Virus record (IMG/VR): IMGVR_UViG_3300029219_000144 | DNA length: 62,402 nt | Origin: a virus | Lineage: Duplodnaviria; Heunggongvirae; Uroviricota; Caudoviricetes | Strand: one strand, 5' to 3' | Shown: positions 61,641 to 62,402 of the stretch, one piece after another | Position numbering within the stretch: the stretch's first letter is position 1 | Layout: every line of letters begins with the position of its first letter | The notes under the pieces: generated by a model | Told to the model about the DNA's origin: nothing | Databases searched by the model: none | Seen by the model: only the letters and a program-made list of their open reading frames with translations | Made by a program: the position numbers and the translations under genes

Positions 61641-62402
61641 TCACTTTTGTTGCCATTCCTTTACAACAGCTTCCCAATCGACAGTTCTCTCGACCAACTT
61701 CCCATCCGCATACTTTCTTGTCCAAACATCCCAGAAGTCAGGGTCATCAGAATGAGGTTGCTGCTCTTTCGTCAAATTTTTCATTTTAACTAGGACAGGA
61801 AGTTCAGATGCCCAGCCCATCAGTATTGCATGTTGGGATGGTAATGAAGGTAGTTCACGGAGTAATCCTCGCAAATTATCAGGTACCATTTTATGAACTT
61901 GCTCCTGATCTTTGTCGTTACTAATTCGATGCAAAAGAAAAGTATTACATTGAGACAAAACCGTAGGTGATAACTCTGATGGTCGTTGTGAGGAAATCAC
62001 CATACCAAGACCAAACTTTCTGCCTTCTCGTGCGATTTTCTCAAACACTTGGCAGCAAACGGCTGCGACATCCTGATTTTCAGAGTCATCACGATACCGT
62101 TTAATAAATGTATGTGCTTCTTCAGCGACAAGTACCGTAGGTAAAGATTTATTATATAGCCGCCTATAACGTTGCAATGATTCAAACACAATCCTTGAAA
62201 TAACAGCTGTCACAAGATGAGTAATTTCTGTTGGTACTAAAGAAAGATCAATAATTGAAACACAGCTATCATCATCGCCGGTTCCATCCTTTCCAATATA
62301 AGTTTCTAACCAATTGGCTAAGGAAGGTGCGAATAAGCAGGTCATTTCTTCCCAAGCTGACTCGCTGATTAAAATTTCGCGGATCTGGGCCGATTTTTTT
62401 CC
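61641..62402 (-). CDS. HerA/FtsK-like P-loop ATPase, C-terminal part (N-terminus beyond window end)
   Basis: Reading frame open to the window edge; Walker B-like VLVAEEAH and sensor-like MVISSQRPSEL; AT-rich gene. Confidence 0.55.
   Translation of the reverse strand, partial: GKKSAQIREILISESAWEEMTCLFAPSLANWLETYIGKDGTGDDDSCVSIIDLSLVPTEITHLVTAVISRIVFESLQRYRRLYNKSLPTVLVAEEAHTFIKRYRDDSENQDVAAVCCQVFEKIAREGRKFGLGMVISSQRPSELSPTVLSQCNTFLLHRISNDKDQEQVHKMVPDNLRGLLRELPSLPSQHAILMGWASELPVLVKMKNLTKEQQPHSDDPDFWDVWTRKYADGKLVERTVDWEAVVKEWQQK

What the first reader, a model, noticed from the sequence alone, without database searches (positions are those of the whole stretch)
61641..62402. Partial HerA/FtsK-like ATPase gene in an AT-rich block at the window edge
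The C-terminal ~250 aa show Walker B and sensor motifs of HerA-type ATPases, which commonly partner with nuclease or Sir2-type effectors in defence systems. Only the 3' part is in the window, so the system cannot be defined here.
Basis: partly seen in the sequence, partly recalled or inferred. Interest (0 to 1): 0.45.

Follow-up and report, generated by a model that had tools for sequence, protein, structure and literature searches.

The report
IS-truncated HerA defence gene remnant
The window ends in the dead tail of a known SIR2-HerA anti-phage gene: it arrived on a Tn3-family transposon that landed next to a tRNA gene of a phage-plasmid, and it was cut off by an insertion sequence, not by the window edge, so it is an ordinary remnant.

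Summary
The minus-strand ORF at 61641-62402 is real and matches defence-type HerA (PADLOC HerA PDLC04098, E=1e-111). It is not a gene cut by the window edge. Only 61641-62322 is herA: codons 465-690 of a 690-aa protein, 100% identical to complete copies. The last 80 bases (62323-62402) are the end of the IS5-family element ISKpn26, inserted at a CTAA target. The missing part holds the Walker A P-loop.

The fragment lies in an 880-bp remnant (61443-62322) of a 7,517-bp Tn3-family transposon. Complete copies of that transposon carry tnpA, tnpR, a SIR2 gene and herA. The 38-bp transposon end sits in the 5-nt spacer after tRNA-Asn of an SSU5-like E. coli phage-plasmid, where relatives carry tRNA-Tyr.

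The system can therefore be named from identical full copies: SIR2-HerA, an NAD+-depleting abortive-infection defence. The window copy lacks SIR2 and two thirds of HerA and is best read as an inactive pseudogene.

The same herA::ISKpn26 junction occurs in many other replicons. The other gene half exists in some draft genomes, so the disrupted transposon probably still moves. This is a known kind of system and of low interest.

The parts
61363..61437 (+). tRNA-Asn(GTT) of the phage-plasmid backbone. It is the last backbone feature before the foreign DNA.
   Evidence: ARAGORN and Rfam tRNA at 75.5 bits. Backbone homology to ~110-kb E. coli phage-plasmids stops at 61446.
61438..61442 (.). ATTTA: the 5-nt spacer that separates tRNA-Asn from tRNA-Tyr in intact relatives, and the presumed 5-bp target of the transposon. 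The duplication cannot be checked because the other transposon end is not in the window.
   Evidence: Junction comparison with pDETEC87 (L003). L003 carries tRNA-Asn 16877-16951 and tRNA-Tyr 16957-17043.
61443..61480 (.). 38-bp terminal inverted repeat of a Tn3-family transposon (GGGGTTTGAGGGCCAATGATGCAAAAAACCACGCTAAG).
   Evidence: The same 38-mer ends the match in every unrelated context. It pairs with an inverted copy (1 mismatch) 7.4 kb away in L004, and that copy is flanked by the 5-bp duplication GTATT.
61443..62322 (.). 880-bp remnant of the 7,517-bp SIR2-HerA transposon: the IR, a 160-nt spacer and the 3' third of herA.
   Evidence: 100% identical to many plasmid copies. The complete element is in NZ_CP031216.
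61641..62322 (-). 3' fragment of herA: codons 465-690 plus the stop. It contains Walker B (VLVAEEAH) and the SQRPSE motif. It lacks Walker A (aa 182-189) and the whole N-terminal part.
   Evidence: tblastn: HerA 465-690 matches 62321-61644 at 100%. Motif positions. PADLOC and NCBIfam hits.
62319..62322 (.). CTAA: the IS5-family target site at the herA/IS junction.
   Evidence: The intact gene reads GGCTAAGTCAAC. The window reads GGCTAA|GGAAGGTGCGAATAAG. CTAA also follows the other IS end in L001.
62323..62402 (.). Terminal 80 bases of ISKpn26 (IS5 family), starting with its inverted repeat GGAAGGTGCGAATAAG. The window ends inside the IS.
   Evidence: 100% identical to the end of the 1,195-bp element annotated ISKpn26 in NZ_CP010237 and NZ_CP022274.
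61641..62402 (-). Chimeric IS-herA open frame. It is called elsewhere as a 256-aa (MFAGKKSAQ...) or 234-aa 'ATP-binding protein'. The window lacks only its first three codons.
   Evidence: The translation equals residues 4-256 of P0004. The 234-aa form is annotated in S43.

Best explanation
This is a non-functional remnant of a transposon-borne SIR2-HerA anti-phage system.

Shown:
- A 7.5-kb Tn3-family transposon (tnpA, tnpR, sir2, herA; 38-bp IRs; 5-bp target duplication) is common on Enterobacterales plasmids.
- One of its ends abuts the spacer after tRNA-Asn in this SSU5-like phage-plasmid.
- ISKpn26 sits at a CTAA inside herA codon 464/465, and the window ends 80 bases into that IS.
- Only the C-terminal third of HerA remains in the window. 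Walker A, the N-terminal domains and SIR2 are absent.

Inferred:
- The IS insertion happened before the element reached the phage-plasmid, because the identical junction occurs in many other replicons.
- The element arrived either by transposition of the IS-bearing but otherwise complete transposon, or by cointegrate formation or recombination with a donor plasmid.
- The window ends where it does because a short-read assembly broke at the multicopy IS.

Intact SIR2-HerA systems work as a HerA hexamer bound to a SIR2 ring. On phage infection the complex depletes NAD+ and nicks or cuts DNA, which aborts the infection. Without an ATP-binding HerA this copy cannot do that, even if sir2 survives beyond the IS, because SIR2 alone is auto-inhibited.
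For: HerA identity: PADLOC HerA E=1.1e-111, NCBIfam HerA_antiphage_2 E=1.5e-47, 100% identity to aa 465-690 of the complete 690-aa protein.

Complete copies: sir2 (PADLOC SIR2 4e-155, Pfam SIR2_2), herA (PADLOC 6.6e-250, DUF87), a resolvase and a Tn3 DDE transposase. IRs and the GTATT duplication.

IS junction.

No SIR2 and no HerA N-terminus anywhere in the window.

Backbone: 99.6% to ~110-kb E. coli plasmids, 97% to phage Cyrano and 84% to SSU5, all stopping at the tRNA-Asn. Intact relatives have tRNA-Tyr where the IR starts.

Spread of the same junction: the 234-aa chimeric product is in 67 blocks and the 224-aa partial in 26 blocks of the protein collection. Together they show at least 10 different flanks at the IR.

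The other half exists: HerA 1-463 ending at the same point, with sir2-tnpR-tnpA upstream, on 14 contigs. One assembly, GCA_015184045.1, holds both halves.

Mechanism of intact systems: PMC11472057, PMC11514289, PMC13434337.
Against: - The DNA beyond the IS in this particular source is unknown, so whether sir2 and the 5' part of herA are still on this replicon cannot be decided.
- No complete sequence in PLSDB or in the complete E. coli genomes carries the reciprocal junction.
- The four long records with the junction have unrelated DNA beyond the IS.
- The tRNA-Asn/IR junction was found in no other record, so the insertion rests on this one sequence.
- Non-function is inferred from the missing motifs. 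It was not measured.
Confidence: 0.88

Rival explanations
1. One reading: an intact HerA gene of a live defence system that is simply cut by the window edge. Its partner effector would lie just to the right.
For: The frame stays open to the last base of the window. The HerA similarity is very strong.
Against: From 62323 onward the sequence departs from every intact herA and is 100% ISKpn26 end, with the CTAA target. The 27 N-terminal residues of the frame are IS-encoded, as in P0004. tblastn identity stops at aa 465.
Confidence: 0.02
2. Sub-variant A. The whole transposon carrying ISKpn26 in herA transposed into the phage-plasmid. The 5' part of herA, sir2, tnpR, tnpA and the second IR, followed by ATTTA and tRNA-Tyr, would lie beyond the IS on another contig. 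The defence system is still dead, but the transposon is complete and mobile.
For: The boundary at 61443 is a precise IR end in the tRNA spacer. Contigs with HerA 1-463 plus sir2, tnpR and tnpA end at the same junction, and one assembly holds both halves. At least 10 different IR flanks share the identical IS junction, as expected if the IS-bearing element transposes.
Against: None of the N-terminal-half contigs seen has the phage-plasmid flank. No complete record holds the reciprocal junction.
Confidence: 0.45
3. Sub-variant B. Only the stump (IR, the herA fragment and ISKpn26) is joined to the phage-plasmid. The rest would have been lost or replaced by recombination or deletion between ISKpn26 copies, by an unresolved cointegrate, or by one-ended transposition from an IncHI2- or IncA/C-type donor.
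For: All four long records with this junction have non-herA DNA beyond the IS. Three have parG-parA-resolvase-HNH-IS66: S43, L007 and pA18-1. One, L009, has other genes. The reciprocal junction is absent from 72,556 plasmids and 5,426 complete E. coli genomes.
Against: This needs several steps. Both gene halves do coexist in at least one draft genome. One-ended transposition is recalled from the Tn3/Tn21 literature and was not tested here.
Confidence: 0.43
4. The chimeric 256-aa C-terminal HerA fragment is expressed from the IS end and has a function of its own. For example, it could poison the HerA hexamers of a resident SIR2-HerA system, which would benefit the phage-plasmid.
For: An ATG/GTG-initiated frame continues from the IS into herA and is recurrently called as a protein. 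The fragment shows no decay: 100% identity.
Against: No promoter-like site was found in 61300-62402. The same chimeric ORF occurs on conjugative plasmids as a by-product of the same insertion. A RecA-like core without its P-loop half is unlikely to fold. The 100% identity is equally explained by a recent event.
Confidence: 0.03
5. A conjugation or housekeeping FtsK/VirB4/TraB-type ATPase rather than a defence HerA.
For: Weak NCBIfam hits to EssC (2e-4), CedB (6e-3) and TraB (0.05), as expected for any FtsK-HerA superfamily member.
Against: Antiphage HerA models score 30 to 100 orders of magnitude better. Identical full-length copies overlap a SIR2 gene by 4 nt in an operon, inside a transposon with no transfer genes.
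Confidence: 0.01

Closest known systems
SIR2-HerA (Sir2-HerA/Nezha-type) anti-phage abortive-infection systems. Solved examples: Paenibacillus sp. 453MF (8wiv/8wld, PMC11472057), S. aureus (8yhx, PMC11514289), E. coli Nezha (8j4u, PMC13434337).
   Same: The full-length parent gene pair is a SIR2_2-domain protein (463 aa) followed by a DUF87/HerA ATPase (690 aa), with the two genes overlapping. The HerA aligns with solved SIR2-HerA HerAs at 7e-48 to 1.5e-32, and the SIR2 aligns with Nezha SIR2 at 2.8e-21. PADLOC HerA and SIR2 models fit end to end.
   Different: The window copy is only the last 226 codons, without SIR2. The parent pair is not close to any solved or named example; E-values of 1e-20 to 1e-48 mean distant relatives. 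I could not map it to the Nezha or type I-III classes of PMC13434337, because that text gives no accessions.
Tn3-family replicative transposons with passenger genes
   Same: 38-bp GGGG...TAAG terminal IRs, a DDE_Tnp_Tn3 transposase with a DUF4158 N-terminus, a serine resolvase transcribed divergently, and a 5-bp target duplication.
   Different: The passengers are a defence pair rather than resistance or toxin-antitoxin genes. I found no published name for this element. In the window only one IR and 842 further bases survive.
ISKpn26 (IS5 family) insertional gene disruption
   Same: The terminal repeat GGAAGGTGCGAA..., the CTAA target, and a 1,195-bp element encoding a 326-aa DDE_Tnp_1 transposase in the records that share the junction.
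   Different: Nothing unusual. Only 80 bases are inside the window.
SSU5 / pHCM2-like phage-plasmids of Enterobacteriaceae (the host replicon)
   Same: The window is 98-99.6% identical to ~110-kb E. coli plasmids, 97% to phage Cyrano and 84% to Salmonella phage SSU5. Shared features include helicase, primase, ligase, tail genes and a tRNA cluster.
   Different: No relative found carries the transposon next to tRNA-Asn.

Membership tests
SIR2-HerA anti-phage system | HerA-family (FtsK-HerA superfamily) ATPase sequence | tested here: met
   PADLOC HerA PDLC04098 E=1.1e-111 on the fragment. NCBIfam HerA_antiphage_2 E=1.5e-47. 100% identity to aa 465-690 of a protein that fits the PADLOC model end to end.
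SIR2-HerA anti-phage system | Complete HerA with N-terminal domain and Walker A P-loop | tested here: not met
   Walker A (GNTGSGKS) is at aa 182-189 of the parent protein. The window holds only aa 465-690. The Pfam DUF87 domain (aa 159-315) is absent, and Pfam finds nothing in the fragment.
SIR2-HerA anti-phage system | sir2 gene adjacent to herA | tested here: not met
   No SIR2 match anywhere in the window (tblastn, best E=1.5). The feature is met in all complete identical copies examined.
SIR2-HerA anti-phage system | Phage-triggered NAD+ depletion / abortive infection | not testable with these tools
   Known for other members (PMC11472057, PMC11514289, PMC13434337). Not known for this transposon-borne variant.
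DUF4297-HerA system | DUF4297 (Cap4-like nuclease) partner next to herA | tested here: not met
   The partner in the identical complete copies is SIR2 (PADLOC SIR2 PDLC04079 E=4e-155).
Tn3-family transposon | About 38-bp terminal inverted repeat, GGGG...TAAG, marking a precise end | tested here: met
   The IR is at 61443-61480. The same end abuts more than 10 unrelated flanks. An inverted partner lies 7.4 kb away in L004.
Tn3-family transposon | DDE Tn3 transposase and resolvase | tested here: not met
   Absent from the window. Present in complete copies: PF01526 and PF13700, plus PF00239.
Tn3-family transposon | 5-bp target duplication | tested here: inconclusive
   GTATT flanks the complete copy in L004. 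In the window only one end is present (ATTTA at 61438-61442), so the duplication cannot be seen.
IS5 family (ISKpn26) | Terminal IR GGAAGGTGCGAA... and a 4-bp CTAA-type target | tested here: met
   62323-62338 is the IR, preceded by CTAA. The 80 bases are 100% identical to the annotated ISKpn26 in two records.
Conjugative or housekeeping FtsK/VirB4/TraB ATPases | Best profile match to such a family, with transfer or division gene context | tested here: not met
   EssC 2e-4 and TraB 0.05, against HerA 1.5e-47. The context in complete copies is sir2 inside a transposon.

The most novel reading that the evidence does not exclude
The IS-disrupted SIR2-HerA transposon is still transposing and has entered a transducible phage-plasmid. 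The retained chimeric C-terminal HerA fragment (256 aa, reading out of the ISKpn26 end) is expressed and acts as a dominant-negative subunit against resident SIR2-HerA systems, so that a broken defence gene serves as an anti-defence factor for the phage-plasmid.
Probability: 0.03. Interest if true: 0.6.

Novelty: already known. Interest (0 to 1): 0.1.

Why it matters
It matters little as a discovery. It shows that a candidate 'defence system at the window edge' is an IS-killed pseudogene of a known system.

There are two modest points of context.

First, an unnamed 7.5-kb Tn3-family transposon carries a SIR2-HerA pair as cargo and is very widespread in Enterobacterales. The exact HerA sequence occurs in 4,666 blocks of the protein collection, and the segment is on 244 PLSDB plasmids. 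I found no paper describing it.

Second, a copy, or a stump of one, has reached an SSU5-like phage-plasmid. This illustrates traffic of transposon cargo between conjugative plasmids and phage-plasmids.

For annotation pipelines it is a reminder that open frames running off a contig into an IS end yield spurious 'ATP-binding protein' calls.

Tried and rejected
- Pfam on the fragment gave only a sub-threshold HAD_Pex22 hit. The DUF87 domain lies in the missing part.
- Five literature searches for a name or description of the transposon found nothing relevant.
- I tried to assign the parent pair to the Nezha or type I-III classes of PMC13434337. The text has no accessions and no supplements are held (one search was a malformed query).
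- The 253-aa window product is not on record, so the source assembly could not be identified.
- P0006 looked promising because its contig is 62,588 bp, but it is a different truncation in another context.
- A 471-aa ORF in L011-L013 had the size predicted for the N-terminal chimeric product. It is an unrelated gene cut by another ISKpn26 copy.
- I searched for a second matching IR to the right of the stump in E. coli S43. Only a Tn3/Tn2-type IR in direct orientation was found, so that module is not a simple larger transposon.
- The exact predicted 472-aa N-terminal chimeric protein and nine of ten length variants are absent from the collection. The 463-aa partial is present.
- The promoter/terminator scan of 61300-62402 found nothing.
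- Rfam found only the tRNA.

Full report
**1. What is at the coordinates**

On the minus strand an open frame runs from the last base of the window (62402) to a stop at 61641-61643, 253 codons plus the stop. Its product matches defence-type HerA ATPases very strongly. PADLOC HerA PDLC04098 gives E=1.1e-111 over profile positions 466-685 of 686, and ten further PADLOC HerA models also match. NCBIfam HerA_antiphage_2 gives 1.5e-47 and HerA_antiphage 4.4e-37, whereas secretion and conjugation ATPases score only 2e-4 (EssC) and 0.05 (TraB). Pfam finds nothing significant, because the Pfam HerA domain (DUF87) lies in the part of the protein that is missing. So the HerA call is right and far beyond chance.

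**2. The gene is cut by an insertion sequence, not by the window**

Megablast against complete E. coli genomes shows that window 61443-62322 is 100% identical to a segment present on many plasmids, but identity stops at 62322 in all but one record. In that one record (E. coli S43, NZ_CP010237) the match continues to the window end, and the following gene is annotated as the ISKpn26 (IS5-family) transposase.

Side-by-side junctions make this explicit:
- The intact gene reads ...CCAATTGGCTAAGTCAACTCGG...
- The window and S43 read ...CCAATTGGCTAA|GGAAGGTGCGAATAAGCAGG...

GGAAGGTGCGAA... is the terminal repeat of the 1,195-bp IS. Its other end (CTTGTTCGCACCTTCC) is again followed by CTAA in S43.

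tblastn of the complete 690-aa HerA against the window matches only aa 465-690, at 100% identity. No part of the SIR2 partner is found. The parent's Walker A box (GNTGSGKS) is at aa 182-189. Walker B (VLVAEEAH, aa 527) and SQRPSE (aa 575) are in the retained part and align with the same motifs of the solved Paenibacillus HerA.

The same chimeric frame is annotated elsewhere as a 234-aa or 256-aa 'ATP-binding protein', and the window lacks only its first three codons.

**3. The fragment belongs to a Tn3-family transposon whose cargo is SIR2-HerA**

In plasmid pEsST80_L1_NDM (NZ_CP031216) the same DNA continues into a full herA (690 aa). Immediately upstream, overlapping by 4 nt, is a 463-aa SIR2-family gene, then a serine resolvase and a divergent 1,002-aa Tn3-family transposase.

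Family assignments of the full-length proteins:
- HerA: PADLOC 6.6e-250, matched end to end, and Pfam DUF87.
- SIR2: PADLOC 4e-155 and Pfam SIR2_2.
- Resolvase: PF00239.
- Transposase: PF01526 plus PF13700.

The element is 7,517 bp. It is bounded by 38-bp inverted repeats with one mismatch (66 nt at 91% in all) and by a 5-bp duplication, GTATT, and it interrupts ISCR1.

In the window the repeat GGGGTTTGAGGGCCAATGATGCAAAAAACCACGCTAAG occupies 61443-61480. The same 38-mer is the exact limit of similarity in every other context examined.

**4. The host replicon and the insertion site**

The rest of the window is an SSU5-like phage-plasmid. It is 98-99.6% identical to ~110-kb E. coli plasmids, 97% to phage Cyrano and 84% to Salmonella phage SSU5. 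That homology ends at 61446, just after tRNA-Asn at 61363-61437.

In the intact relative pDETEC87, tRNA-Asn is followed after 5 nt by tRNA-Tyr and then tRNA-Ser. In the window the transposon end sits in that 5-nt spacer (ATTTA), and the tRNA-Tyr sequence is not in the window.

No PLSDB plasmid and no complete E. coli genome carries this tRNA-Asn/IR junction.

The 'AT-rich block' is simply the transposon DNA: GC 0.41-0.42 against 0.468 for the window. It is not exceptional, since other 1-kb blocks of the window reach 0.389.

**5. How common, and how the remnant may have got here**

The 880-bp segment is on 244 PLSDB plasmids. Of these, 189 cover at least 80% of it and 92 are at least 99% identical. 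The exact 690-aa HerA is listed in 4,666 blocks of the large protein collection, typically in IncHI2-type contexts.

The herA::ISKpn26 allele is a minority but is not unique:
- The 234-aa chimeric product is in 67 blocks.
- A 224-aa partial that ends at the junction is in 26 blocks.
- At least ten different sequences abut the IR in these contigs: IncA/C dcm, IncHI2 transfer region, a DUF7017 gene, a sensor kinase, IS110, T4SS genes, VgrG, HNH genes and a Gp49/HTH pair.

In the four long records with the junction, the DNA beyond the IS is not herA. S43, L007 and pA18-1 have parG-parA-resolvase-HNH-IS66, and L009 has other genes. The reciprocal junction is absent from PLSDB and from the complete E. 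coli genomes.

However, the N-terminal half does exist. HerA 1-463, ending within a few bases of the same point and preceded by sir2, tnpR and tnpA, is on 14 draft contigs. Assembly GCA_015184045.1 holds both halves.

The simplest reading is that ISKpn26 hit herA once in an otherwise complete transposon. That element can still transpose, because tnpA, tnpR and both IRs are untouched, and later recombination between ISKpn26 copies has scrambled some copies.

For this window I cannot tell whether the rest of the transposon lies beyond the IS (sub-variant A) or has been lost (sub-variant B). None of the N-terminal-half contigs seen shows the phage-plasmid flank, and the source assembly is not in the collection. 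That the window stops 80 bases into a multicopy IS suggests a short-read contig end. This is inference.

**6. Function**

[quoted passage not shown] HerA hexamers and SIR2 rings form a large complex whose NADase, nuclease/nickase, ATPase and helicase activities are switched on by complex formation and by phage triggers. SIR2 alone is auto-inhibited or inactive (PMC11472057, PMC11514289, PMC13434337).

The window copy lacks the P-loop, the N-terminal two thirds of HerA and SIR2, so I consider it an inactive pseudogene (inferred, about 0.9). Even under sub-variant A the system would be dead, because herA is split.

The retained part shows no sequence decay (100% identity), which indicates a recent event. 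No promoter-like site was found in 61300-62402. A function for the chimeric fragment, such as poisoning HerA hexamers, is not excluded but has no support.

**7. Comparison with known systems and verdict**

The parent pair is a member of the SIR2-HerA kind by sequence and by gene arrangement. It is only distantly related to the solved examples: HerA 7e-48 to 1.5e-32, SIR2 2.8e-21 at best.

E. coli is reported to hold eight Sir2-HerA clusters, of which Nezha and types I-III are validated (PMC13434337). I could not map this variant to one of them. I found no publication naming the transposon.

The window feature itself fails the membership features 'complete HerA' and 'adjacent sir2'. It is therefore filed as a remnant of such a system, not as a system.

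The expectation that extending the window would reveal the system does not. Novelty: already known. Interest: low.

Noticed in passing
window 122-6104: The phage-plasmid carries a type I R-M methylase gene (hsdM, 122-1684, minus strand) and full-length copies of the housekeeping genes apbC/mrp (2813-3913, minus strand) and metG, methionyl-tRNA synthetase (3942-6104, plus strand). These are part of the conserved ~110-kb plasmid family: 99 complete E. coli records cover at least 80% of window 1-20000.
   Followed up: partly
window 13782-14384 (minus strand): A 200-aa ORF matches Pfam Flag1_repress (FljA-type repressor of phase-1 flagellin) at E=2.5e-84. A flagellin-expression repressor on a phage-plasmid is unexpected.
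   Followed up: no
window ~7330-8090: About 800 bp of strongly skewed, A+C-rich and G/T-poor sequence with no convincing ORF. For 7001-8000 the GC skew is -0.32 and the AT skew +0.27. It is conserved in related plasmids and has no Rfam hit. Function unknown.
   Followed up: partly
window 42459-46616: A 1,385-aa tail-fibre gene (Gp34_trimer and Peptidase_S74 domains). It contains a 1-kb stretch of high GC (0.589 at 43-44 kb) with long overlapping ORFs on both strands, and a 120-bp tandem repeat at 44558-44864.
   Followed up: partly
window 61438-61446; L003 16952-17491: The transposon end separates tRNA-Asn from the tRNA-Tyr and tRNA-Ser genes that follow it in intact relatives. Those two tRNAs are not in the window, so the phage-plasmid's tRNA cluster is interrupted here.
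   Followed up: yes
L007-L026 (contigs sharing the herA::ISKpn26 junction): The identical IS junction is linked to at least 10 different sequences at the transposon IR, and to at least two different sequences beyond the IS. In L018 the IR abuts DNA that lies ~5 kb from the IR in L036, which looks like an IR-adjacent deletion. This suggests ongoing transposition or intramolecular events of a transposon whose defence cargo is already dead.
   Followed up: partly
L006 (NZ_CP010237.1 1-13700) and L038: The E. coli S43 'chromosome' record contains IncHI2 transfer genes. It also holds both a truncated copy (12771-13475) and a complete copy (within record 80798-96870) of the SIR2-HerA transposon. Next to the truncated copy lies a 736-aa AAA ATPase plus an 860-aa PDDEXK-type nuclease gene pair that looks like another defence candidate.
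   Followed up: no
L030, L031, L036-L039 (IncHI2 context of the intact transposon): The common IncHI2 copy of the transposon is not flanked by an obvious 5-bp duplication (left ...TATAA, right GCTAA...). An ISKpn26-like transposase gene lies ~1.5 kb from the herA end, a plausible local source of the IS that hit herA.
   Followed up: no
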